A DNA stretch of 64,000 nt from Corallococcus exercitus (GCF_042231735.1 NZ_CP102577.1:2847281-2911280), one strand, 5' to 3'; positions 21,516 to 43,395 are shown, counted from the stretch's first letter. The notes: generated by a model not told the origin, from the sequence alone. A program made the numbers and translations.

Positions 21516-22505
21516 ATGAGGACTCCAGGGCAGGAACATCGCGGCGCGCTTCACGGAGAGGACGTGCGGCACTGGGAGGCGCCCCTTCCGGGAGGCCGGG
21601 TGCGGCTGTCGCTCCGGGTGGACGCCGGGACACGGGCCGTCCTGGACGCGGCGTGGGAGGCCCCGGAGTCCGTGGGCGCGGGCCATCCGCTGGCGGCGTG
21701 CCTGGAGTCGCTGTGTCAGAACGCGGTGGGCATCGGGGTGGACGTGTTCCTGCGCTTCGACGACTTCCACCTGCGGGCGGGCTGTCCGGAGGGGCTGGAG
21801 GCGACGGAGGAGGCGGGGCTGGCGGTGCGGGTGTTCCGCTTCGCGTTCAGCCAGTTCCATCCCCGGGCCACCGGGCCGGCGTACCTGTCGAGCGGGCTGG
21901 TGCTGGCGAAGCTGCCCCGGGGCACGCGGCCGGAGTGGGAGGAGCCGGGGTTCTACTTCGCGCACTACTACCGCGAGGAGCTGTGGCCCGAGGCGGTGGA
22001 GGAGGCGCGGAGGGGCGGTGTGCTGGGGCCGCGCGCGGCGTGCGCGTACATCGATGCGCTCTTGGCGAAGGCGGACGACACGGTGGAGCTGGACTGGCCC
22101 GTGGAGCAGGGCACGGCGACCTGGGAGTGGCTGACGCGCGTCTGTCTGCCGTCGGTGACCGGGAGCGAGGAGCGGACGCGGCAGCTGCTGGAGGGCGGCT
22201 ACGGGGGCACGAGCGGCACGGGGAGCTTCTCCTTCGGCCACCTGGACGGAGGGCCGTGGCGTCCCCCGGAGGGCCTGCCGGAGCCAGAAGACGTGGGGCA
22301 CGCGGAGTTCATCCTCGGGGACCTGGAGCACCTGCTGCCGGAGCTGCCGAAGGACGGTGTGCTGCTGGCCGCGCCCCGCTGGATGGCGGTGGGACAGACG
22401 CGCGATTCACCCGCGCTGCGCCGGGCCGACATTTCGAGCGAGGAGGCGGGAGGCTTCGGCCTGTTCAACGCGGCCGCGCATGACGTGGGCGAGGACGATG
22501 ATTGA
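21516..22505 (+). CDS. Hypothetical protein
   Basis: 330-aa in-frame ORF starting MRTPGQEHRG with host-like GC. Its stop overlaps the start of the next gene (ATGATTGATATG). Confidence 0.4.
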   Translation: MRTPGQEHRGALHGEDVRHWEAPLPGGRVRLSLRVDAGTRAVLDAAWEAPESVGAGHPLAACLESLCQNAVGIGVDVFLRFDDFHLRAGCPEGLEATEEAGLAVRVFRFAFSQFHPRATGPAYLSSGLVLAKLPRGTRPEWEEPGFYFAHYYREELWPEAVEEARRGGVLGPRAACAYIDALLAKADDTVELDWPVEQGTATWEWLTRVCLPSVTGSEERTRQLLEGGYGGTSGTGSFSFGHLDGGPWRPPEGLPEPEDVGHAEFILGDLEHLLPELPKDGVLLAAPRWMAVGQTRDSPALRRADISSEEAGGFGLFNAAAHDVGEDDD

Positions 22506-22506
22506 T

Positions 22507-23238
22507 ATGCGACTGCTGGGCGCGGTGATGGCCCTGCTGAGTCTGTCGTGTGCCTCGGGCCCGGCGCGCTATGCGCAGTCGACGGACTCCGCGACGAACG
22601 GATGCTTTCGCAATCCCACCTGTTACACGCAGCCGGGGGATGAGGCGTTCCTTCCATGGGTGGACAAGGCCGCCAGGGCGGCGGCCACCGCGGGGGCGAC
22701 GCTGAAGGTGCTGGAGGCGGCGGACGTAGCCCTCATCGAGCACCTGCTTGTGGAGTGCTCCAAGGAAGCGAACCGCGTGGTCAATGAACGCGAGTACGGC
22801 GAGGGGAAATACCCGGACGACAAGGAGTGCTTGCGGGTGGTTGGCCAGGACAAGGACGGCAAGCCCCTTCGACGGCAGGCCGAACTCGGAACGCTGAAGC
22901 ACGAGTTTGCCTTCGCATGCGTGCGGCGTGAAATTCTCCGGCGCTTCCCCAACAACGTTTCGATTGAGCCGAGCTATGTGGTCCGCCCGCGTAGAGCGGC
23001 GCAACAACCGGAACTCATGAAGCCCGACGTCGTCCTTCACGCCTCGGGCCGGCCGGATCAGGTCCAATGCGTTTATGACTTCAAGTTTCCATGCCTCAAG
23101 GCACGCAAGAGCGATCCGCTCTCGGTCCAAGAAACGAAGGATCAGCTCCGCCGGTACACGGACCTCGAAGGGCAATGCAATCCCGCCATCATCACACCTC
23201 AGCTAGGGATCATTCGTGGACAGCTACACTCCCTCTGA
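22507..23238 (+). CDS. Secreted protein or lipoprotein of unknown function with a PD-(D/E)xK-like motif. It sits in lower-GC DNA.
   Basis: Signal peptide MRLLGAVMALLSLSCASG. It contains ...KPDVVLHASGRPDQVQCVYDFKFPC (PD then D-x-K about 17 aa later), plus several conserved Cys and acidic residues. Composition is visibly lower in GC than the flanks. Confidence 0.45.
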   Translation: MRLLGAVMALLSLSCASGPARYAQSTDSATNGCFRNPTCYTQPGDEAFLPWVDKAARAAATAGATLKVLEAADVALIEHLLVECSKEANRVVNEREYGEGKYPDDKECLRVVGQDKDGKPLRRQAELGTLKHEFAFACVRREILRRFPNNVSIEPSYVVRPRRAAQQPELMKPDVVLHASGRPDQVQCVYDFKFPCLKARKSDPLSVQETKDQLRRYTDLEGQCNPAIITPQLGIIRGQLHSL

Positions 23239-24220
23239 ACATTTCGCGATGACGCTCCCCAGGGTCCAGCTGGTCCTGCGCATCGTCTTCTATCTGCCGC
23301 ATGACCATGGCGTGGTGGCACCGGTCGTACGACGTCTCCTCGATATCTATCTCGCATTCATCGCAGCCAGTGGCGGAGCACTGACAACAGGAGAGGATCC
23401 CGACATCAGTGAGGCTCCTTTCCCACTCACTCCTGCTACCTGGGAGGAGGTCCACCAGGAACTGAAGAAGGCTCGTTTTGGCCCAATGGAAGACAGGGAT
23501 CAAGACTCCATCTGGTTCCGCATCTTGACCAAGAGGGGCTTCGATACACTCGTCCATCTCACGGGCGGAGAGTCGGACCCCAGTGGCTATGAATTCAGCT
23601 TCCGCTCCCGGCTCCCCTGGCGAGAACCCTCTGGTGAGTACAGCGTCCTGAGCGTGAAGGTCCCCATGCAGTTCCTGGAGGACCAGGGGCCTGAGAAGGC
23701 CTTTGAGCTGGCACGGGCGCTGGCGGAGCCACTTCCCTTCTCCACGGGTCATGCGGGGCTGTCGCTGTCATTCACCCGTGGCAGGTCCAGACTCCTTCCC
23801 CTCCTCAAGGACCATCTGGTCCGGCATCCCGGCTGGGATGTTCCACGCGAGAGCACATGGGGCATGGAAGAAGGGATCGACGGCATCCACTGGATGACCT
23901 TTCTGGGAGCTCCCCTCCTGGACACCCTGGGGGGGCCCGAGGCGATCCGCGCCCGGTTGCAGCATCCGGAGACCACCGTGCAGGAACTCACCGGGAGCCG
24001 TGCCCTGATCCGCCTGGGCCCCGCGCCCCTGGCGGGAGACACGAAGCTGGGTGAAACGCTGCCGGCGTACCGCGAGCTGGCCCGGTTCCTGGAACCGTGG
24101 CTCCAGCCCTCCCCTCCCTTCACCTCCTTCGAGGGCTACACACCGGAGGAGATGCGCCAGTGGTGGCGCCGCTTCCTGGAGCCGCCCCCAGCGGCAATCT
24201 CCAATCCACGCGAGGGATGA
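23216..24220 (+). CDS. Hypothetical protein; its start overlaps the previous gene by 23 bp. It is a possible immunity-like partner, which is inference only.
   Basis: 334-aa ORF beginning MDSYTPSEHF with no signal peptide. It has the same lower-GC composition as the upstream gene and is translationally coupled to it. Confidence 0.45.
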   Translation: MDSYTPSEHFAMTLPRVQLVLRIVFYLPHDHGVVAPVVRRLLDIYLAFIAASGGALTTGEDPDISEAPFPLTPATWEEVHQELKKARFGPMEDRDQDSIWFRILTKRGFDTLVHLTGGESDPSGYEFSFRSRLPWREPSGEYSVLSVKVPMQFLEDQGPEKAFELARALAEPLPFSTGHAGLSLSFTRGRSRLLPLLKDHLVRHPGWDVPRESTWGMEEGIDGIHWMTFLGAPLLDTLGGPEAIRARLQHPETTVQELTGSRALIRLGPAPLAGDTKLGETLPAYRELARFLEPWLQPSPPFTSFEGYTPEEMRQWWRRFLEPPPAAISNPREG

Positions 24221-34692: not shown

Positions 34693-36291
34693 ATGTTCAA
34701 CGTCATCAACGTCTCCAAGGCCTACGGGCCCAAGAAACTTTTCGAGGAGGTCAACGTCGCCTTCTCGCCGGGCCGTCGCTACGGCCTGACCGGTCCGAAC
34801 GGGGCCGGCAAGTCCACGTTCATGAAGATCCTCGCGGGTGACGAGGAGCAGGACATGGGCGAGATCATCCGCCCCCGCAAGCTGGGCATCCTGCGCCAGG
34901 ACCACTTCCGCTACGAGAACGACCGCGTCATCGACGTGGTGCTGATGGGCAACCGCCACCTGTGGGCGGCCATGGACGAGAAGAACAAGCTCCTGGCCAA
35001 GGCCGACATCACGGAAGAGGACGGCAACCGGCTGGGTGAGCTGGAAGGCGTCATCGCGGAAGAGGACGGCTATTCGGCGGAGAGCGACGCGGCCACGCTG
35101 CTGGCGGGCCTTGGCATCGAGGAGTCCTTCCACGAAGAGCCCATGCGCCAGCTCACCGGCGGCCTGAAGCTGCGCGTGTTGCTCGCGCAGGCGCTGTTCG
35201 GCAAGCCGGAAGGCTTGCTGCTGGACGAGCCCACGAACAACCTGGACATCGACTCCATCCGCTGGCTGGAGAACTTCCTCCATGCGTACGAGGGCGTGCT
35301 GATCACCATCAGCCACGACCGGCACTTCCTGAACTCCATCTGCACGCACATCGCGGACATCGATTACGAGACCATCATCCAGTACACGGGTGGTTACGAC
35401 GACATGGTCCGGCAGAAGTCGCAGCTGCGGACCCGGGTCGAGGCCGAGACGGCGGAGAAGAAGAAGAAGATCGCCCAGCTGCAGGACTTCGTGGCGCGCT
35501 TCCACGCGGGTACGCGTGCGTCGCAGGTGCAGAGCCGCATCAAGCAGATCGACAAGCTGAAGACGGAGGACCTGAAGCGCTCGAACATCGCGCGGCCGTT
35601 CATCCGGTTCGACCAGAAGGTGGTCAGCGGCCGGCAGACGCTGATGTTCGAGGGCCTGAAGAAGTCCTTCGACGGGCAGCAGGTCATCAAGCCGTTCAAG
35701 GGGCTGGTCTGCAAGGGCGAGCGCATCTGCGTCATCGGCCGCAACGCCGTGGGCAAGTCCACGCTGGTGAAGATGCTGGCGGGGCAGCTGGAGCCGGACG
35801 CGGGCACCATCACCTGGGGCCACCAGGCGACGGTGGGCTACCTGCCGCAGGACCACCACGGCGTCATCCACAAGGGCACGACGTGCTTCGGCTATCTCCG
35901 GGAGATCAGCGAGAAGCTGACCAACGAGGAGATTTCGGGCGTGCTGGGCCGGATGCTCTTCTCGGGTGAGGAGCGGATGAAGCCCACGGACACGCTCTCC
36001 GGTGGTGAGACAGTGCGCGTGCTGTTGTCCAAGCTGATGATCATGCAGGACAACGTGCTGATCCTGGACGAGCCGACGAACCACCTGGACCTGGAGTCCA
36101 TCGCGGCGCTGGCCGAAGGCCTGTCCAAGTTCGAGGGCACGGTCATCTGCGTGACGCACGACCAGGAGCTCATCTCCGAGGTCGCGACCCGCATCTGGAG
36201 CCTGGAGGCGGGCAAGGAAGTCCTCGACTTCAACGGGCCTTACTCCGAGTTCATGGAGAAGCACGCGGACGCGGCGCAGAAGCGCCGGTAG
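34693..36291 (+). CDS. ABC-F family ATPase (EttA/Uup-like) with two ABC cassettes and no TM domain
   Basis: There are two Walker A motifs (GPNGAGKST and GRNAVGKST), two LSGGxx signatures (LTGGLKLRV and LSGGETVRV) and an inter-domain linker with the ABC-F coiled arm (KKKKIAQLQDFVARF). The start ATG is at 34693, leaving a roughly 236-nt leader. Confidence 0.85.
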   Translation: MFNVINVSKAYGPKKLFEEVNVAFSPGRRYGLTGPNGAGKSTFMKILAGDEEQDMGEIIRPRKLGILRQDHFRYENDRVIDVVLMGNRHLWAAMDEKNKLLAKADITEEDGNRLGELEGVIAEEDGYSAESDAATLLAGLGIEESFHEEPMRQLTGGLKLRVLLAQALFGKPEGLLLDEPTNNLDIDSIRWLENFLHAYEGVLITISHDRHFLNSICTHIADIDYETIIQYTGGYDDMVRQKSQLRTRVEAETAEKKKKIAQLQDFVARFHAGTRASQVQSRIKQIDKLKTEDLKRSNIARPFIRFDQKVVSGRQTLMFEGLKKSFDGQQVIKPFKGLVCKGERICVIGRNAVGKSTLVKMLAGQLEPDAGTITWGHQATVGYLPQDHHGVIHKGTTCFGYLREISEKLTNEEISGVLGRMLFSGEERMKPTDTLSGGETVRVLLSKLMIMQDNVLILDEPTNHLDLESIAALAEGLSKFEGTVICVTHDQELISEVATRIWSLEAGKEVLDFNGPYSEFMEKHADAAQKRR

Positions 36292-36318
36292 TCAGCACAG
36301 GATTAGCCAGGCAGTGCC

Positions 36319-36365
36319 AAACGCCGCCCGTTTCCGGTCCGTCCGGAAGCGAGGCGGCGTTTTCG
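36319..36365 (+). terminator. Intrinsic terminator after the ABC-F gene
   Basis: aaacgccgcc - cgtttccggtccgtccggaagcga - ggcggcgtttt. The stem GCCGCC/GGCGGC is followed by a T-tract. Confidence 0.5.
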
Positions 36366-36446
36366 TGGGCTGTCCATCCCTCTTCCGGGTGATGTCCCGG
36401 CCATGAATGGATCGACAAGACTCCGCTCGAGGCCGCCAGTCCAGGG

Positions 36447-37961
36447 TTGGCCTGGGGGTGGCTGATGGATCAGGTCATGGTGTGGGCGCCGCTGGCGTTG
36501 TTGTTCGCCGGCCTGTGGTTCCGGTCCCGCAGGCGGGTCCGTGACCTCCAGAAGCGGTTCAAACCCATCGTGGACGTTGAAGCTGAAAAGCAGCGGATCT
36601 CCGAAGAGATTGCGCACACACAGCTCGCGGCCACACTGGCGCGCGAAGCCGAGCGTCATCGAGCGGCCCAGGAAATCGCGGAGATCCGCAATGCCGCCGC
36701 GTTGGCCACTGCCGCGGAGCAGAAGCAGGTGGCCGCAGAATGTCACCGCATGCAGGAGGAGGCTTCGCGGGCAACAATAGCCGCCGCGCGGTCCGTGAAG
36801 GACGCGGAAGAGCAACGCCAGACGCTGATCAAGGAACAACAAGATCTGAAAGCCACCATCGCGCGATTGCGCGAAGAGCTTCGCCCCCTGGATGAAGAAG
36901 CGTTTCTCCTCTCCACGGGCTTCTACAAGCCGATCTATGCCTTCTCCTCTGTCGAGGAGTACGAACGCCGCCTGCAGGAGCTTCGCGAAAAGCAGAAGTC
37001 CATGTTGCAGGACAAGCGCGCTGCGACTTGTTCCATCGAGTGGGAGGTCAATGGGAGCAAGGCTGAGGGCAAGAGGCAGACGGAACGAACGCTGAAGCTG
37101 ATGCTTCGTGCGTTCAACGGCGAGGCCGACGCATGTGTCTCGAAGGTGACCTACAAGAACATCAAGACCATGGAAGCGCGCATCGAGAAAGCTGCGGATG
37201 CGATCAATGGCCTGACGAAGATCCAGAGTTGTACCATCGCGAGCCAGTATGTCGCCTTCAAGCTGGACGAACTGCGCCTTGCCCACGAGTACGCTGAGCG
37301 GATCCAACAGGAGCGCGACGAGCAGAAGCGCATTCGCGAGCAGATGCGCGAGGAAGAGGCGGCGCAGCGGGAGTTGGAGAAGGCGAAGCTGGAAGCAGAG
37401 CGCGAGGCGAAGCGAGACGCCGAGTCCTTGGCGAAGGCGAAAGCGGACTACGAGAAGGCCAAGGGCTCCGAACAGCAGAAGCTTCTGGAACGCATCGCGG
37501 AACTGGAGCGCCGCGTCGCCGAGGATCTGGAGAAGCAGCGAGCCATCTCCCAGGCCCAGCTCACACGGACGGGGCACGTCTATGTCATCTCAAACATCGG
37601 CTCGTTCGGAGAAGGCATTTTCAAGCTGGGGATGACCCGAAGGCTGGTGCCCCAGGACCGCATCGACGAACTGGGAGACGCCTCGGTGCCATTCGAGTTC
37701 GACGTCCACGCCATCATCCGGACCTCGGATGCGCCAGCGCTGGAGAGTGCCCTGCACCGAACCTTCGCGAACCGGCGCGTTAATCGCATCAACGAGCGCA
37801 AGGAGTTCTTCCGCGTCAGCCTGGAGGAAATCGCTGAGGCCGTGCGAAAACACCATGGTGAGTTTGAATTAACCTGGATTGCCGAAGCTGCGGAGTACCG
37901 GAAGTCACTGGCGCTACGGGAAGACGACAATAGCACCCAGTCACAACAAACCGCAGCGTGA
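36447..37961 (+). CDS. DUF4041-type protein with an N-terminal TM helix, about 330 aa of coiled coil, and a C-terminal T5orf172 / GIY-YIG-like (MUG113) domain. It sits in a low-GC islet.
   Basis: TM is VMVWAPLALLFAGLWF. A long E/K/R/A/Q-rich heptad-like region follows. The DUF4041-like core is STGFYKPIYAFSSVEEYERRLQELREKQK...KLMLRAFNGEADACVSKVTYKNIKTMEARIEKAADAINGL. The C-terminus is TGHVYVISNIGSFGEGIFKLGMTRRLVPQDRIDELGDASVPFEFDVHAIIRTSDAPALESALHRTFANRRVNRINERKEFFRVSLEEI, typical of T5orf172. Domain names are from memory. GC is clearly below the host level. Confidence 0.65.
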   Translation: MAWGWLMDQVMVWAPLALLFAGLWFRSRRRVRDLQKRFKPIVDVEAEKQRISEEIAHTQLAATLAREAERHRAAQEIAEIRNAAALATAAEQKQVAAECHRMQEEASRATIAAARSVKDAEEQRQTLIKEQQDLKATIARLREELRPLDEEAFLLSTGFYKPIYAFSSVEEYERRLQELREKQKSMLQDKRAATCSIEWEVNGSKAEGKRQTERTLKLMLRAFNGEADACVSKVTYKNIKTMEARIEKAADAINGLTKIQSCTIASQYVAFKLDELRLAHEYAERIQQERDEQKRIREQMREEEAAQRELEKAKLEAEREAKRDAESLAKAKADYEKAKGSEQQKLLERIAELERRVAEDLEKQRAISQAQLTRTGHVYVISNIGSFGEGIFKLGMTRRLVPQDRIDELGDASVPFEFDVHAIIRTSDAPALESALHRTFANRRVNRINERKEFFRVSLEEIAEAVRKHHGEFELTWIAEAAEYRKSLALREDDNSTQSQQTAA

Positions 37962-38001
37962 GACACGAATCACCTAACAGCGATCAGCTTCCTCTGCGAC
38001 A

Positions 38002-38838
38002 ATGACACAGGCTCTTCCAACACCCGATGACGTCCCTCCTCCAGGCGTTATGAGATGGCTCATCTCCTGCGACGAATCCGGAACAGGCGGCTCGCCCTTC
38101 TACGGCTTCGGAACACTCTGGATGAACTGGCAAAGGCGTGGAAACTTCTCCGAACTCATCCAGGATCTTCGAGAGAAACATAAGTACGAATTTGAAATCA
38201 AATGGAACAAAGTCTCCGGCAGGAATTTGCCATTTTATCGAGACTTGGTGGAAGCCTTCTTCAAGACCAGCTGGATGCACTTTCACTGCATAGTCGTGAA
38301 ACAGGCAGACGTGCGTTTAGATTTCCACGATCGAGACTGGGATCTTGCGCGCCGAAAGCACTTCACCATGCTCCTGACCAACAAGATCAGGCGCTGCCTC
38401 ACCAAGAATCCCAATCGAGATTTGACGTTTCGAATATGGGTTGACCCCATTGCCTCACGCTACAAAAAGGCCAATGAAGCGGTGGAGATTATCGCCAACA
38501 ACGCACTCCAACAGGTTTTCAAGCGACTCCGCCCCGTCGACAAGGTCATTACTCGCGATTCGCGCGACACTCCAAGCATTCAGCTTTGCGATCTCCTCCT
38601 CGGCGCGGTGATGGAAGGTTGGCAGCGAAAGTCCGACTCCGAGTCCAAGCAGGAGCTGCGCGAATGGATTGCTGAACACCTTGGTTGGGACGACTTGGCG
38701 AACGACACACACAGAGACGAAACGAAGTTCAACATCTGGTATTTTCACGATCCGATATCAAAACCCAAGCGATCCGCCCTCACGCGTCCCGTCAAATTGA
38801 GATACCCACTGCCAACCGGCAAACGGCGTCGTTCGTAG
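38002..38838 (+). CDS. DUF3800 family protein, in the low-GC islet directly downstream of the DUF4041/T5orf172 gene
   Basis: The N-terminal MRWLISCDESGTGGSPFYGFG (DESG hallmark) and the distal SIQLCDLLLGAVMEG (QLxDL motif) match my recollection of DUF3800. About 50% GC by eye, with AT-rich codons (aaa, gaa, ttt) that are rare in the flanking genes. Confidence 0.6.
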   Translation: MTQALPTPDDVPPPGVMRWLISCDESGTGGSPFYGFGTLWMNWQRRGNFSELIQDLREKHKYEFEIKWNKVSGRNLPFYRDLVEAFFKTSWMHFHCIVVKQADVRLDFHDRDWDLARRKHFTMLLTNKIRRCLTKNPNRDLTFRIWVDPIASRYKKANEAVEIIANNALQQVFKRLRPVDKVITRDSRDTPSIQLCDLLLGAVMEGWQRKSDSESKQELREWIAEHLGWDDLANDTHRDETKFNIWYFHDPISKPKRSALTRPVKLRYPLPTGKRRRS

Positions 38839-39074
38839 CACTCAATTCACGAGGGCCGACGAACCGGAGCCTTGAGTGAAGCGAATAGTGTAGCGCGTTT
38901 AGGGCCATCATCCTTCGTCGCGTCTTTGGACTCCTACTGGCACTGCTCCCCTTCCCGATTGGTGCTGCCCTCGTACCAGCTTTGCCCTAGCTCCACATCC
39001 AGGCAACGTGGTGTGTATGGACAACCGTTCTTAATGGCGAGGGAAACGGGCGTGAGTGGGTATGATGCAGGGCC

Positions 39075-40523
39075 ATGTATCCGAGACGCCGTCTTCTGGC
39101 CCGTGGACCGTGGTTGTTCGATCTCAGACCGCAGCGGCTCATCGTCTTCCACGGAGCCGAAGGCGTGCGCCGGGAGGTCAGTGGCGACGTGCCGGATCAT
39201 CCGTCCGCGCCCGTGGAGCTCGCCGCGCTCAACGAGGCACAGGACGTCTGGGTGGGATGCGGGGATCGGCGTGTCTTCTCCGTGGGGGCCGGCGCGGGCG
39301 CTCCCGTCCAGGCCTTTCCGAGGGAGTGCTTCGATCTCACCTCCGATGGGGACCGACTCATCGGAACGGTGGTGGACGGCGCCCGCAAGCTCACCACCCT
39401 CTTCACGACCGATGGGTCCGGGCAGCAAAGGGCGCCCATGACCTTGCCCAAGCCCGTGCGCGCCTCGCACGGGTATGGGTATTCCGAGGGGCGCCCCCAG
39501 CGTCAGTCCCCTGATGGGGCGTTCCTCGACACGAGCCCCTTTGGCATCACCGTCGTGGAGAAGGGCCGGGGCCGCGTCTACGTGCTCCGCGCGGGGGCGG
39601 CTCAGCCGGAGGGCGCGCTCCAGGTGGAGCCGGGCGGTGAGGAGGACATCTGGCGGGCCCAGGCCACTCCCCAGGGCGTGCTTCTCCTGCTCGTCATCAA
39701 CTACCGGCAGACGGCGCTCCTCCACTTCGCGCTCGATGGCACCCTGCTCGGCTCCATCCCGGCGATCGATGATGAGGATGACGATGCGGAAGAACTGATC
39801 TGGGGCGGTGCCGGGGTGTGCGTCCTCGACGCGGACCGGGCGCTCCTCTTCGTCCAGGACAAGACCCTCCTGGTGTCCCTGCCCGAGCTCCAGGTGTTGG
39901 AGACGGTCGTGGGGGAGTGGCCTGCCTTCGTGTCCGTGACGCCCGCGGGGCCTGACCGGTGGTGGGTGGGCGCCGAGGACAGGGACTCGCTCTTCCTGCT
40001 CACCGCCGAGCCCGGACACCCCTTGCGCCTCCACGCCTCAAACCGTCCGGTGATCCCGGGCGCTCCGCTCATGCACGTGGGCTACAAGACGCCCGCGATC
40101 CACTGGGCCGAGCACACCTCGGCGCCGCTCACCGTTTCCGCGCCCGTGACCGAGACGTGGCGCGCGGTGGTGCGAAATGACGGGACCGCGTGTGAGGCCG
40201 TGCGGATCCGGGTGTCCGGGGCGCTCGTCGGCGCTCGCGTGGTGGATGTGAGCGTGCGGTATCGCGGCCAGCCGCTCCCGATGGTGGAGGAGCAGCGCGT
40301 GAACGTCGTGGGCATTACCGCTGGACTGGAGGCAGGGGCCACCGCGGAGCTGGAGGTAACCTTCAAGCCCCGGAGCGAGGGCTCGGGACCGCTGACCATC
40401 ACCGTCGAGCCGTGCTCCTGGCAGGCGCAGGCCAAAGAATGGCAATGGGACAAAGAGCAGCCTCGCGTCCTCGTGATGACGGGCCATACGGCAAGCGCCC
40501 AGTTCCCGCTCACGGTGGAGTAG
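39075..40523 (+). CDS. Hypothetical protein (482 aa), convergent with and overlapping the pseudokinase gene by 14 bp
   Basis: Long ORF with host-like codon usage and no family that I recognise. Confidence 0.45.
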   Translation: MYPRRRLLARGPWLFDLRPQRLIVFHGAEGVRREVSGDVPDHPSAPVELAALNEAQDVWVGCGDRRVFSVGAGAGAPVQAFPRECFDLTSDGDRLIGTVVDGARKLTTLFTTDGSGQQRAPMTLPKPVRASHGYGYSEGRPQRQSPDGAFLDTSPFGITVVEKGRGRVYVLRAGAAQPEGALQVEPGGEEDIWRAQATPQGVLLLLVINYRQTALLHFALDGTLLGSIPAIDDEDDDAEELIWGGAGVCVLDADRALLFVQDKTLLVSLPELQVLETVVGEWPAFVSVTPAGPDRWWVGAEDRDSLFLLTAEPGHPLRLHASNRPVIPGAPLMHVGYKTPAIHWAEHTSAPLTVSAPVTETWRAVVRNDGTACEAVRIRVSGALVGARVVDVSVRYRGQPLPMVEEQRVNVVGITAGLEAGATAELEVTFKPRSEGSGPLTITVEPCSWQAQAKEWQWDKEQPRVLVMTGHTASAQFPLTVE

Positions 40524-41646: not shown

Positions 41647-43395
41647 ATGACCCGTTACCGCTTCCTTGGGCTTCTGCTGGCGCTGCTTCCCCTCCATGTC
41701 GGCGCCGTCCCCATTCCCGCGGATCCGTTGGTGGGCATTTGGGGCAGTGAGCGCGTCCTCGGACCTCAGGTCCGGGGTGAGCTGACCCTGGTGCGTGAGG
41801 GGAACACGTGGCGCGCGCGCATCGCGGGCTTCGATGTTCCTGCCCGGAACGAGGGCAGGAAGGTGTCCGTCGTCTTCCCCGGAGGCGAACTCCGAGCGAC
41901 GTTGGCGGAGAACGGCCAGAGCATCACGGGTCACTGGATTCAGCCTCCCGTGCTCATGAGCGGCATGAAGTTCGCCACGCCGGTGGAGCTGCGCTCGCTT
42001 CAGCCGGGTGTCTGGCGCGGCAACGTGGCGCCGCTGGAGGACCGGTTCTCGCTGTATCTCGTCGTCCAGAAGCAGCCCGACGGCTCCGTGACGGCATTCA
42101 TCCGCAACCCGGAGCGCAACTTCGGCAACCGGATGCAGTTCCGCGTGGACCTCCAGGACCGCACGGTGCGGCTCACGTCCACCAAGGGCAACACCCAGAT
42201 CGAAGGCACGTTCGACGCGCAATCCGGACGGCTGTCCCTGCCCTACCCTCCCTTCGACACGACGTTCGACTTCACCCGTCGGGACCGGTCCCAGGCCGTG
42301 GGCCTCTACTCTCGCACGCCCGCTCCGGGCCCCTACGTCCACCAGAAGCCCATCGCGGAGGACGACGGCTGGACCACGGCCTCACCCGCCGACGTCGGCA
42401 TGGACGTCCAACCGCTCCAGCAGCTCGTGCAGCGCATCCTCGACCAGGAGCCAAGCCCGGAGTCCGCCCCCGCCATCCAGGGGCTTCTCATCGCACGTCA
42501 CGGGAAGCTCATCCTCGAAGAGTACTTCCAGGGGTTCGACAAGGAGCGCCCGCACGACTTGCGCTCCTCCTCCAAGTCCTACGCCTCCCTGCTGATTGGC
42601 ATTGCCCTGGACCAGGGTGCTCCCTTCACCGTGGACACGCCCGTCGTCTCACTCTTCCCCGAGTACAAGGGCAAGCTCTCCGGCCTGGATGCGCGCAAGC
42701 GCAAGCTCACCGTCGCGCACCTGATGACCATGGCAACAGGCCTGGCTTGTGACGACGACGACCCGGCTTCCCCCGGCAACGAGGACCGGCTCGAGGACTC
42801 CGTACCGGATTGGTACAAGTACACGCTGGACCTCCCCATGGTCCGCGCGCCGGGTGAGAAGGCCGTGTACTGCTCCGCGAACATCAACCTGCTGGGCGGC
42901 GTCCTTCGCAACACCACGCGCACCTGGCTCCCCGAGTTCTTCACCCGGAACGTCGCCACGCCCCTCCAGATGCGCGGCTACCACGTCGACCTGATGCCGA
43001 ACGGCGAGCAGTACCTGGGCGGCGGCATCTACATGCGCCCCCGGGATGCCCTGAAGCTCGGGCAGCTCTATCTCTCTGGCGGGACATGGAACGGGAAGCG
43101 CGTGGTCAGCCAGCGCTGGGTGGCGCGCTCCATCGCGAAGCAATCAACGATGGGGGATGGCAGGACCTATGGATACACGTGGTGGCGCCATGAGCTCCGC
43201 GTCGGCGACCGCGTGTATTCGCAATACGAGGCCAGCGGCAACGGAGGCCAGCTCGTGATGGTCGTCCCGGAGCTGGACCTCGTCGTGCTGTTCACCGCGG
43301 GCAACTACAACCACGTTGCCCTGTGGCGGAAGTTCCGTGAGGAACTCCTGCCACAGTACATCCTGGCCGCGGCGTCAACGCCTCTGCGGCCTTGA
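41647..43395 (+). CDS. Secreted serine hydrolase of the beta-lactamase / penicillin-binding-protein-like family (class C-like fold) with an N-terminal lipocalin-like/beta domain
   Basis: Signal peptide MTRYRFLGLLLALLPLHVGA. The SxxK active-site motif is in LRSSSKSYASLLIGIAL, and a YxN-like motif is in YCSANINLLG. The C-terminal region is typical of the family (GGGIYMRPRDALKLGQLYLSGGTWNGKRVVS). Confidence 0.75.
   Translation: MTRYRFLGLLLALLPLHVGAVPIPADPLVGIWGSERVLGPQVRGELTLVREGNTWRARIAGFDVPARNEGRKVSVVFPGGELRATLAENGQSITGHWIQPPVLMSGMKFATPVELRSLQPGVWRGNVAPLEDRFSLYLVVQKQPDGSVTAFIRNPERNFGNRMQFRVDLQDRTVRLTSTKGNTQIEGTFDAQSGRLSLPYPPFDTTFDFTRRDRSQAVGLYSRTPAPGPYVHQKPIAEDDGWTTASPADVGMDVQPLQQLVQRILDQEPSPESAPAIQGLLIARHGKLILEEYFQGFDKERPHDLRSSSKSYASLLIGIALDQGAPFTVDTPVVSLFPEYKGKLSGLDARKRKLTVAHLMTMATGLACDDDDPASPGNEDRLEDSVPDWYKYTLDLPMVRAPGEKAVYCSANINLLGGVLRNTTRTWLPEFFTRNVATPLQMRGYHVDLMPNGEQYLGGGIYMRPRDALKLGQLYLSGGTWNGKRVVSQRWVARSIAKQSTMGDGRTYGYTWWRHELRVGDRVYSQYEASGNGGQLVMVVPELDLVVLFTAGNYNHVALWRKFREELLPQYILAAASTPLRP

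What the first reader, a model, noticed from the sequence alone, without database searches (positions are those of the whole stretch)
36292..39074. Low-GC two-gene islet (DUF4041-T5orf172 protein + DUF3800 protein) inserted between ABC-F and host genes: candidate uncharacterised anti-phage / abortive-infection module
The flanking genes (tgt, ABC-F upstream; hypothetical gene, pseudokinase and serine hydrolase downstream) have the roughly 70% GC and GC3-rich codon usage of the host. Between the ABC-F terminator (36319-36365) and about 39075 the composition drops sharply, by eye to roughly 50-58%. The DUF3800 gene is the most AT-rich, with aaa, gaa and ttt codons that are nearly absent elsewhere. 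The two genes lie on the same strand, 40 bp apart, and both belong to domain families enriched in defence islands: a T5orf172/GIY-YIG-like domain, and DUF3800. Defence modules commonly pair a membrane-anchored coiled-coil protein ending in a nuclease-like domain with a small partner. I cannot assign this pair to a named system, so it may be an undescribed one. No integrase, transposase or flanking tRNA is present.
Basis: partly seen in the sequence, partly recalled or inferred. Interest (0 to 1): 0.85.

Follow-up and report, generated by a model that had tools for sequence, protein, structure and literature searches.

The report
SNIPE nuclease plus DUF3800 defence islet
This low-GC islet is real, but it is two unrelated single-gene cassettes sitting in a phage-defence hotspot of Corallococcus: a homologue of the already characterised SNIPE (PD-lambda-1) membrane nuclease, and a stand-alone RNase H2-like DUF3800 gene of untested function; it is not a new two-gene system.

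Summary
The insert at 36371-38978 has GC 0.581, against 0.704 +/- 0.024 for other windows of the same size. It lies between the ABC-F terminator and a conserved hypothetical gene, and no tRNA is nearby.

Gene A (36465-37961) is a full-length homologue of SNIPE/PD-lambda-1. It matches the PADLOC model at 1.6e-153 and is 45% identical to the studied E. coli protein. It has the N-terminal membrane helix, the DUF4041 domain and a GIY-YIG/T5orf172 domain. The catalytic Glu (E. coli E414) aligns to E433. SNIPE is a known single-gene system that cuts phage DNA during injection.

The two genes are not a pair. None of 236 loci holding one family also holds the other. In C. exiguus the same SNIPE gene is followed by a SIR2-like gene instead.

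The site is a defence hotspot. Other Corallococcus species carry Shedu, Tiamat, Hhe+SNIPE+SIR2 or an ATPase-methyltransferase there.

Verdict: a new member of known kinds, of modest interest.

The parts
36310..36373 (+). Rho-independent terminator of the ABC-F gene. It marks the left edge of the variable site; shared sequence with other Corallococcus genomes ends at 36362-36426.
   Evidence: The fold gives -44.7 kcal/mol, z -6.18, with a U-run after the stem. blastn breakpoints are.
36371..38978 (.). Strain-specific insert, defined by comparison with C. exercitus AB043A, which carries a Shedu gene at the same place. It is the low-GC cargo of the hotspot.
   Evidence: Flank homology to L010 ends at 36370 and resumes at 38979. 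GC is 0.581 against 0.704 +/- 0.024. The L010 cargo matches SduA at 1.6e-132.
36465..37961 (+). SNIPE / PD-lambda-1 homologue. It is 498 aa from the ATG at 36465; the open frame begins at the TTG at 36447 and gives 504 aa.
   Evidence: PADLOC PD-Lambda-1 1.6e-153, covering 28-483 of 491 model positions. phrog_1847 1.3e-142. 45% identity over 419 aa to the E. coli SNIPE WP_024234465.1, E 1e-114. P0121 is the identical deposited protein.
36471..36521 (+). N-terminal hydrophobic segment of SNIPE (QVMVWAPLALLFAGLWF), followed by RSRRR. Predicted single membrane anchor.
   Evidence: The highest 17-residue Kyte-Doolittle mean in the protein is 1.72, at residues 9-25. The AF2 model has a helix at 4-37. 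Homologues share a hydrophobic N-terminus. No dedicated TM predictor was run.
37095..37262 (+). DUF4041 (Pfam PF13250, now labelled 'SNIPE') core of the central globular domain.
   Evidence: Pfam 1.1e-21, 76.9 bits against a cut-off of 27, covering profile positions 1-56 of 56. The AF2 model has a globular region at 169-264 between two long helices.
37572..37850 (+). C-terminal T5orf172/MUG113 (GIY-YIG-type) nuclease domain. Invariant Y379, R398, E433 (codon 37743-37745), N446 and E453.
   Evidence: Pfam T5orf172 4.5e-18 and MUG113 2.1e-17. E433 aligns with E414 of E. coli SNIPE. Foldseek gives weak hits to the GIY-YIG nuclease Slx1, prob 0.85-0.89, E 0.4.
37916..39028 (.). DUF3800 cassette, defined by comparison with C. 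exiguus. It replaces a 3.6-kb module there (SIR2_2 gene, a 221-aa gene and a pentapeptide-repeat gene).
   Evidence: blastn homology of the window to L165 ends at 37915 and resumes at 39029.
38002..38838 (+). DUF3800 gene (278 aa; the deposited annotation starts at the ATG at 38050 and gives 262 aa). RNase H2-like protein with conserved D24, E25, D148, E159 and Q194-x-x-D197.
38839..38978 (+). 3' non-coding tail of the insert. No detectable terminator, structured RNA or similarity to the flanks of other DUF3800 genes.
   Evidence: Fold z-scores are -0.81 (+ strand) and -0.09 (- strand). Rfam finds nothing relevant. There are no blastn matches among 84 sets of flanks. There is no terminator-like site.
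39075..40523 (+). Conserved hypothetical gene (482 aa). It forms the right flank of the hotspot and is not part of the islet.
   Evidence: It is 87-88% identical in L008 and L010 and is present in L165 at the same relative position. It has no Pfam or PADLOC match.

Best explanation
The segment is the variable cargo of a phage-defence hotspot. In Corallococcus this hotspot lies between the terminator of an ABC-F gene and a conserved hypothetical gene. In this C. exercitus strain the cargo is two independent single-gene cassettes.

Cassette 1 encodes a SNIPE (PD-lambda-1) homologue. By homology (inferred, not shown here), a short N-terminal helix anchors it in the inner membrane. A long coiled coil holds the DUF4041 domain in the cytoplasm, where it binds DNA and contacts the tape-measure protein, together with a GIY-YIG nuclease. 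That nuclease cuts siphovirus DNA as it is injected. Tethering to the membrane keeps the nuclease away from the chromosome.

Cassette 2 is a more recently acquired DUF3800 gene of about 1.1 kb. It encodes an RNase H2-like metal-dependent nuclease of a compact, highly conserved subfamily. That subfamily travels alone as a moron in temperate phages and in defence islands. It most likely acts on its own as a nucleic-acid-targeting defence or superinfection-exclusion factor (inferred; no experiment exists).

The adjacency of the two genes results from cassette shuffling at the hotspot. It does not reflect functional coupling.
For: Hotspot.
- Both flanks are shared with L010, L008 and L165, but the cargo differs: Shedu; a Kelch protein plus an AAA_21-methyltransferase; SNIPE plus SIR2_2 plus two other genes.
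- Tiamat follows ABC-F in L011.
- Hhe + SNIPE + SIR2 follows it in L005, L007, L009, L015 and L024.
- Sources.

SNIPE membership.
- PADLOC 1.6e-153 over the full length.
- 45% identity to the E. coli protein that carries all eight residues named in the SNIPE paper.
- E414 aligns to the invariant E433.
- The AF2 architecture is TM helix, long helix, globular domain, long helix, then an alpha/beta domain.
- The mechanism comes from bioRxiv 10.1101/2025.11.03.685801.

Independence of the two genes.
- 0 of 83, 0 of 73 and 0 of 80 loci show co-occurrence.
- DNA homology to C. exiguus stops about 45 nt before the SNIPE stop codon and resumes after the DUF3800 cassette.
- GC3 is 0.77 for SNIPE and 0.64 for DUF3800.

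DUF3800.
- RNase H2/HII fold.
- Invariant carboxylates.
- It matches the PADLOC candidate PDC-M04A.
- Relatives sit between antiterminator Q and the holin in a lambdoid phage-plasmid.
- A relative has its own promoter and terminator in the P2-like phage PHL101.
- Other relatives lie next to retron reverse transcriptases or a Dam-type methyltransferase.
- 73 viral contigs carry a relative.
- Sources for the contexts.
Against: - No phenotype is known for any protein of this window.
- SNIPE was studied only in E. coli, against lambda and other siphoviruses, and with host factors (ManYZ) that need not exist in myxobacteria.
- The N-terminal 100 residues are not alignable to E. coli SNIPE.
- The structural match of the nuclease domain to GIY-YIG enzymes is weak (E 0.4).
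- For DUF3800, defence is only guilt by association. PDC-M04 is an unvalidated multi-gene candidate whose B component was not found here.
- The distant relative RlfA lies in the lytic replicon of phage P1, which could point to a role in replication or maintenance instead.
- No terminator lies between the two genes, so co-transcription, and therefore some functional interplay, cannot be excluded.
Confidence: 0.75

Rival explanations
1. One reading: the two genes form one cooperative two-gene defence or abortive-infection system. A membrane-anchored nuclease sensor or effector works with a small DUF3800 partner.
For: The genes are on the same strand, 40 bp apart, with no terminator-like site between them. 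Both families are defence-associated.
Against: No co-occurrence was found in 236 loci holding one family or the other. SNIPE works alone in E. coli. SNIPE homologues in other Corallococcus species are followed by a SIR2-like gene instead. Recombination breakpoints separate the two genes, and their codon composition differs.
Confidence: 0.04
2. The DUF3800 gene is not an immune gene. It is a selfish or maintenance gene of mobile elements, for example a nuclease that serves phage or plasmid replication or RNA processing, and it merely landed in a recombination-prone site.
For: The family is carried by temperate phages and phage-plasmids. The distant relatives RlfA and RapA lie in the P1/P7 lytic replicon region. 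The wider DUF3800 family is linked to 11 structured RNA motifs of unknown role (PMC5737381). No defence phenotype has been published.
Against: In phages the gene sits at moron positions, between Q and the holin on the opposite strand. In PHL101 it has its own promoter and terminator. It also occurs outside phages, beside retrons, methyltransferases and other defence genes, and here in a hotspot that otherwise holds Shedu, Tiamat, Hhe, SNIPE and SIR2. No Rfam DUF3800 RNA motif accompanies this subfamily, in the window or in 15 related loci.
Confidence: 0.2
3. The islet is a decayed prophage fragment. In E. coli both gene families are typical prophage morons.
For: E. coli SNIPE genes lie in lambdoid and P2/186-like prophages. 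DUF3800 relatives lie in lambdoid and P2-like phages. Both proteins match PHROG families.
Against: There is no phage structural, integrase, repressor or att-like element in or beside the 2.6-kb insert, and no tRNA. Both flanks are conserved chromosomal genes. In related species the same site holds non-phage defence cargo.
Confidence: 0.04

Closest known systems
SNIPE (PD-lambda-1) of E. coli. Vassallo et al. 2022, PMC9519451; Saxton et al. 2025, bioRxiv 10.1101/2025.11.03.685801.
   Same: The architecture and order are the same: N-terminal membrane helix, coiled coil, DUF4041, long linker helix, and a GIY-YIG/T5orf172 nuclease. The two proteins are 45% identical over 419 aa. The catalytic Glu is conserved (E414 = E433). 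Both match the PD-Lambda-1 model over its full length. Both are single genes with changing neighbours.
   Different: The host is a myxobacterium (Corallococcus, about 70% GC). The N-terminal region of about 100 residues is unrelated in sequence, which is the usual pattern for the family. The gene is chromosomal, in a non-prophage hotspot, whereas the E. coli copies are in prophages. The phage range, membrane partners and activity are untested.
PADLOC candidate system PDC-M04 (component A), which corresponds to phrog_3732 within Pfam DUF3800.
   Same: Gene B matches the M04A model over its full length (1.5e-36). It has the DE and QxxD motifs and the RNase H2-like fold. Like other members, it sits among defence genes.
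   Different: PDC-M04 is listed as a multi-gene candidate, and no second component was detected next to gene B. Most relatives examined also look solitary. The candidate has never been validated.
DUF3800 proteins of type VII retrons (Mestre et al. 2020, PMC7736814) and the TPR-DUF3800 proteins linked to Cas12a2 (Altae-Tran et al. 2023, PMC10910872).
   Same: The Pfam domain and the RNase H-like fold, with a DE motif at the N-terminus, are the same. Both occur in immune loci.
   Different: No reverse transcriptase, msr/msd RNA, CRISPR array, Cas12 or TPR domain is present here. Gene B keeps the Q of the QxxD motif, which the retron-linked proteins lack.
Defence-system hotspots at conserved chromosomal or prophage sites, such as the P2/P4 hotspots and integration hotspots between core genes.
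   Same: The flanks are conserved and the cargo is mutually exclusive and variable (Shedu, Tiamat, Hhe, SNIPE, SIR2-like, ATPase-methyltransferase, DUF3800). Composition of the cargo is atypical.
   Different: The site lies beside an ABC-F gene in Myxococcaceae and has no integrase or phage backbone. The only trace of a mechanism is duplication of the ABC-F 3' end or terminator in two species.

Membership tests
SNIPE / PD-lambda-1 | Full-length match to the family profile and to the experimentally studied protein | tested here: met
   PADLOC PDLC03976 at 1.6e-153, 510 bits, covering query 32-501 and model 28-483 of 491. BLASTP against E. coli WP_024234465.1 gives 45% identity over 419 aa, E 1e-114. 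That protein has all 8 residues named in the paper.
SNIPE / PD-lambda-1 | Central DUF4041 (PF13250) domain | tested here: met
   Pfam 1.1e-21, 76.9 bits against a cut-off of 27, over the full profile. The AF2 model has a globular domain at 169-264.
SNIPE / PD-lambda-1 | C-terminal GIY-YIG-type nuclease with the catalytic Glu (E414 in E. coli) | tested here: met
   T5orf172 4.5e-18 and MUG113 2.1e-17. E433 aligns with E414 and is invariant in 19 and 26 homologues. Structural support is only weak: Slx1, prob 0.85-0.89, E about 0.4.
SNIPE / PD-lambda-1 | N-terminal membrane anchor within the first 70 residues (present in about two thirds of homologues) | tested here: met
   Hydrophobic stretch at residues 9-25 (KD mean 1.72), followed by RSRRR. 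AF2 helix at 4-37. This rests on hydropathy only; no topology predictor or experiment was used.
SNIPE / PD-lambda-1 | Acts as a single gene, with no conserved partner | tested here: met
   Neighbours differ between genomes: DUF3800 here, SIR2_2 in C. exiguus, Hhe upstream in C. coralloides, and prophage genes in E. coli. None of 80 viral SNIPE loci holds a DUF3800 gene.
SNIPE / PD-lambda-1 | Protects against phage by cutting DNA during injection; membrane localisation; contact with the tape-measure protein | not testable with these tools
   This needs phage challenge, localisation and cleavage assays.
Pfam DUF3800 (PF12686) | Profile match above the gathering score, with the N-terminal DE and C-terminal QxxD motifs | tested here: met
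   44.1 bits against a cut-off of 21. D24-E25 and Q194-L-C-D197 are present. D24, E25, D148, E159 and D197 are invariant in 50 homologues. The motifs are as defined in PMC7736814.
Pfam DUF3800 (PF12686) | RNase H2-like fold | tested here: met
Pfam DUF3800 (PF12686) | Neighbouring DUF3800-I to -XI structured RNA motif (Weinberg et al. 2017) | tested here: not met
   Rfam finds no such motif in window 35500-40000 at E <= 5, nor in 15 loci of the same subfamily at gathering score. The flanks show no excess structure.
PADLOC candidate PDC-M04 | Component A present | tested here: met
   PDLC04353 at 1.5e-36, covering model positions 7-227 of 232.
PADLOC candidate PDC-M04 | Second component (M04B) adjacent | tested here: not met
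   No neighbour matches any PDC-M04 model. Gene A matches PD-Lambda-1 and the downstream gene matches nothing. Neighbours of relatives also gave no M04B match. Caveat: what M04B is could not be looked up.
Type VII retron | Retron reverse transcriptase and msr/msd RNA next to the DUF3800 gene | tested here: not met
   The neighbours are SNIPE and a hypothetical gene with no RVT_1 match. There is no retron RNA in Rfam.
Defence hotspot (variable cargo between conserved flanks) | Same flanks with different, mostly defence-related cargo in related genomes | tested here: met
   Cargo by genome: window SNIPE+DUF3800; L010 Shedu; L008 Kelch protein plus AAA_21-methyltransferase; L165 SNIPE+SIR2_2; L011 Tiamat; L005/L007/L009/L015/L024 Hhe+SNIPE+SIR2.

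The most novel reading that the evidence does not exclude
The compact DUF3800 subfamily represented by gene B (phrog_3732 / PDC-M04A) has only 51 representatives at 50% identity with E <= 1e-30, and members from different phyla are 55-73% identical. It could be a stand-alone, single-gene anti-phage or superinfection-exclusion nuclease with an RNase H2/PIWI-like fold. It would spread as a moron among temperate phages and defence hotspots. That would be an unvalidated defence system, and the RNase H2-like fold suggests RNA-DNA hybrids as one possible target. A still bolder but unlikely reading is that it modulates the neighbouring SNIPE.
Probability: 0.4. Interest if true: 0.5.

Novelty: new member of a known kind. 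Interest (0 to 1): 0.3.

Why it matters
This corrects an attractive but wrong call. What looked like a new two-gene immune system is a known one-gene system (SNIPE) beside an unrelated candidate gene.

Three useful results remain.
1. A well-defined SNIPE homologue in a myxobacterium. It has a divergent N-terminal adapter region and could show how SNIPE works without the E. coli mannose permease.
2. A precisely bounded defence hotspot after the ABC-F terminator in Corallococcus. Its unannotated cargo in other species (for example L006, L012 and L014) is a place to look for new defence genes.
3. A short list of contexts arguing that one DUF3800 subfamily is a solitary, phage-borne, RNase H2-like candidate worth a phage-challenge test.

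Tried and rejected
- Exact-sequence look-ups of gene B and of the downstream gene found nothing, because the deposited start codons differ. The look-up of P0123 also failed.
- Repeat search across the islet found no flanking direct or inverted repeats that could be att sites or transposon ends.
- The promoter and terminator scan found nothing useful. It also missed the ABC-F terminator because of its limit on loop size.
- I looked for a structured RNA partner of DUF3800. Rfam was negative for the window and for 15 related loci. Folding of the 3' tail was not significant. Alignment of flanks from close homologues showed no conservation.
- A conserved 45-nt upstream motif exists only in AT-rich relatives, and it looks like a promoter or operator rather than an RNA.
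- I looked for the PDC-M04B partner among neighbours of relatives and found none.
- A Pfam search for an integrase in the L006 island, which is flanked by a duplicated ABC-F 3' end, found none.
- A PDB sequence search with the nuclease domain gave no hit.
- Foldseek with the whole SNIPE model was dominated by coiled-coil noise. Only weak Slx1 hits were informative.
- Literature searches for PDC-M04, RlfA and phrog_3732 gave nothing relevant.
- The GC3 values printed for sub-segments of gene A were taken out of frame and are not used.
Full report
**Observation**

The compositional anomaly is real.
- GC is 0.65-0.75 in the flanks. It falls to 0.48-0.62 between about 36800 and 39050.
- The insert, delimited by comparison with another strain (36371-38978), has GC 0.581.
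- All 562 other windows of that size in the 64-kb window have mean 0.704, sd 0.024 and minimum 0.650.
- GC3 is 0.97 for tgt and 0.92 for ABC-F. It drops to 0.77 for gene A and 0.64 for gene B, then returns to 0.86 in the next gene.
- Two + strand ORFs fill the segment: 36447-37961 and 38002-38838.
- The ABC-F terminator is a strong hairpin followed by a U-run: -44.7 kcal/mol, z -6.2.
- There is no tRNA within 28-47 kb.
- The flanking genes are TGT, ABC-F, a hypothetical 482-aa protein, a protein kinase and a beta-lactamase-family protein.

**Gene A is a SNIPE (PD-lambda-1) homologue**

*Sequence evidence*
- Pfam finds DUF4041 (1.1e-21) and T5orf172/MUG113 (4.5e-18 and 2.1e-17).
- The PADLOC PD-Lambda-1 model matches over its full length, at 1.6e-153.
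- PD-lambda-1 was found by functional selection in E. coli. [quoted passage not shown]

*The published mechanism*

The system has since been renamed SNIPE and shown to be a single-gene, direct defence (bioRxiv 10.1101/2025.11.03.685801).
- An N-terminal transmembrane helix tethers the protein to the inner membrane.
- DUF4041 binds DNA and probably contacts the tape-measure protein.
- A GIY-YIG nuclease, with catalytic E414, cuts phage DNA during injection.
- The N-terminal region is hypervariable among homologues.

*Comparison with the studied E. coli protein*
- I recovered an E. coli prophage protein, WP_024234465.1. It carries all eight residues named in that paper at the stated positions.
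- Gene A is 45% identical to it over 419 residues, E 1e-114.
- E414 aligns with E433 of gene A, which is invariant in two alignments of homologues.

*Architecture*
- Residues 9-25 are the most hydrophobic stretch and are followed by RSRRR.
- An AlphaFold2 model (pLDDT 78.6) shows helix 4-37, a long helix at 44-157, a globular domain at 169-264, long helices at 266-372, and an alpha/beta domain at 376-470.
- The only compact-domain hits of that model in the PDB are the GIY-YIG nuclease Slx1, and they are weak.
- Pfam's precomputed label for PF13250 is already 'SNIPE'.

**Gene B is a DUF3800 protein with an RNase H2-like fold**

*Family matches*
- It matches Pfam DUF3800, PADLOC candidate PDC-M04A at 1.5e-36 and phrog_3732 at 4.4e-88.

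*Size and conservation of the subfamily*
- Homologues are 55-73% identical although they come from Myxococcota, Acidobacteriota and many metagenomes.
- At 50% clustering, only 51 representatives reach E <= 1e-30.
- D24, E25, D148, E159 and D197 are invariant. D24-E25 and D197 belong to the DE and QxxD motifs described for the family (PMC7736814).

*Structure*
- The AlphaFold2 model is confident: pLDDT 88.3, pTM 0.88.

*What is published*
- The literature gives no function.
- DUF3800 is linked to type VII retrons.
- It is linked to a Cas12a2 sub-branch (PMC10910872).
- It is linked to eleven structured RNA motifs (PMC5737381).
- No such RNA is present in the window or in 15 loci of this subfamily. 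The 3' tail of the insert is not unusually structured.

**The two genes are not a pair**
- The three closest DUF3800 contexts have no DUF4041 neighbour.
- Of 83 genome or metagenome loci with a DUF3800 relative, none has a SNIPE gene. 54 of these loci have at least 2 kb of flank.
- Of 73 viral contigs with a DUF3800 relative, none has SNIPE within 5 kb. Of 80 viral contigs with SNIPE, none has DUF3800.
- None of the 80 ABC-F loci of Myxococcaceae has DUF3800.
- The closest SNIPE context, in C. exiguus (80% identical protein), reads ABC-F, SNIPE, SIR2_2, a 221-aa gene and a pentapeptide-repeat gene. The same 482-aa gene, kinase and beta-lactamase-family gene as in the window follow.
- DNA homology between the window and that locus is continuous from ABC-F to 37915, about 45 nt before the SNIPE stop codon. 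It resumes at 39029.
- The DUF3800 gene is therefore a separate cassette of about 1.1 kb that replaces 3.6 kb of other cargo.

**The site is a defence hotspot**

Compared with C. exercitus AB043A, shared sequence ends at 36370 and resumes at 38979. The cargo at this site differs by genome:

| Genome | Cargo after ABC-F |
|---|---|
| This window | SNIPE + DUF3800 |
| C. exercitus AB043A (L010) | Shedu (SduA, 1.6e-132) |
| C. carmarthensis (L008) | Kelch/Ig protein and an AAA_21-methyltransferase fusion |
| Corallococcus sp. CA053C (L011) | Tiamat (TmtA, 1e-109) |
| C. coralloides, C. interemptor and three others | Hhe (1785 aa), SNIPE and a SIR2-like gene |
| C. exiguus (L165) | SNIPE + SIR2_2 + two other genes |

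No integrase was found. C. aberystwythensis has a 555-bp duplicate of the ABC-F 3' end 5.1 kb downstream. C. carmarthensis repeats 95 bp around the ABC-F stop codon and terminator. These duplications hint at recombination in this region.

**Contexts of DUF3800 relatives**

Several relatives sit in mobile elements or beside defence genes.
- A lambdoid E. coli phage-plasmid carries one between antiterminator Q and the holin, on the opposite strand.
- The P2-like Mannheimia phage PHL101 carries one with its own annotated promoter and terminator.
- Escherichia phage Chuche carries one.
- Others lie beside antiterminator Q in 7 loci, and near retron reverse transcriptases in 5 loci.
- Others lie beside DitA-like genes in 4 loci. 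A Dam-type methyltransferase lies immediately downstream in 4 loci and nearby on the opposite strand in 2 more.
- The more distant relatives RlfA and RapA belong to phages P1 and P7.
- All phage copies match PDC-M04A.

This pattern fits a solitary accessory gene of mobile elements, most plausibly one used in inter-phage conflict. No experiment supports that yet. A role in element maintenance or replication remains possible.

**Mechanism and confidence**

*Shown here*
- The accessory nature and the boundaries of the islet.
- Family membership of both proteins.
- Conservation of the catalytic residues.
- The folds of both proteins.
- The lack of linkage between the two families.
- The variable cargo at the hotspot.

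*Inferred from E. coli work*
- Gene A is a membrane-tethered nuclease that cuts incoming phage DNA.

*Inferred from fold and context only*
- Gene B is a metal-dependent nuclease acting alone in defence or exclusion.

*Confidence*
- About 0.95 that gene A belongs to the SNIPE family.
- About 0.85 that the two genes are functionally independent.
- About 0.5 that gene B is a defence gene.

**Novelty and score**

Gene A is a new member of a known system in a new host group. Gene B belongs to a candidate already listed in PADLOC. The hotspot is ordinary in kind. I score interest at 0.3. What value remains lies in the untested DUF3800 subfamily and in the hotspot as a place to look for new cargo.

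Noticed in passing
window 22700-24220: A second low-GC patch (0.58-0.62 against 0.70). It holds two ORFs with no Pfam match (22465-23175 -, 23210-23752 -). ORF 23216-24220 + matches Pfam TsiV, 'Type VI immunity for VRR-NUC' (2e-41). This may be a T6SS effector/immunity islet.
   Followed up: partly
L006:6894-7449 (C. aberystwythensis) and L008:12511-12604 (C. carmarthensis): The ABC-F 3' end and terminator are duplicated downstream of the cargo. The copy in L006 is 555 bp at 93.5% identity, 5.1 kb away. The copy in L008 is 95 bp. These may be scars of the recombination that exchanges cargo. No integrase was found in the L006 island.
   Followed up: partly
L010:4242-4548: Inside the AB043A insert, just upstream of the 482-aa gene, lies a 307-bp stretch that is 80% identical to the start of the beta-lactamase-family gene (window 41697-42000). 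It looks like a partial duplicate.
   Followed up: no
L113:2037-2987, L126:1026-1931, L129:2098-3063, L139:1667-2461: In four metagenome loci a Dam-type (D12) N6-adenine DNA methyltransferase starts within -19 to +24 bp of the DUF3800 stop codon, on the same strand. Two more loci have one divergently upstream. This could be a restriction-modification-like pairing of a DUF3800 nuclease with a methyltransferase.
   Followed up: partly
upstream of the DUF3800 gene in L117, L118, L124-L133, L140-L164 (21 loci): A conserved motif of about 45 nt lies 30-70 nt before the start codon in AT-rich relatives with different neighbours: TAAAACGATCTTTATCAA-N6-TTA-N6-TGTGGTTAAATA. It contains a GATC site. It probably represents the gene's own promoter or operator. 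It is absent from the window.
   Followed up: partly
L006:1742-6522, L012:9772-13822, L014:10666-12996: Other Corallococcus species carry low-GC cargo at the same hotspot with no PADLOC match. Most of it has no Pfam match either. L014 has a GGDEF protein, and a 537-aa ORF in L006 (7539-9152, minus strand, beyond the duplicated ABC-F fragment) has a faint BrxC/D-like P-loop. These are candidate unknown defence genes.
   Followed up: partly
window 38002 vs 38050; window 36447 vs 36465: The deposited annotation starts the DUF3800 gene at M17 (262 aa). However, the PPPGV motif upstream of M17 is conserved in most homologues, which favours the ATG at 38002. For SNIPE, the deposited start is the ATG at 36465, not the TTG at 36447 that opens the frame.
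   Followed up: yes
L170:2976-4478 and L171:2744-4420 (E. coli chromosomes): E. coli SNIPE-family genes sit at two different prophage moron positions. One is between ren and the nin region of a lambdoid prophage. The other is between the CI repressor and the integrase of a P2/186-like prophage. 314 of 5426 complete E. coli genomes gave a DNA match to a SNIPE-family (DUF4041) query gene from a Klebsiella plasmid.
   Followed up: partly
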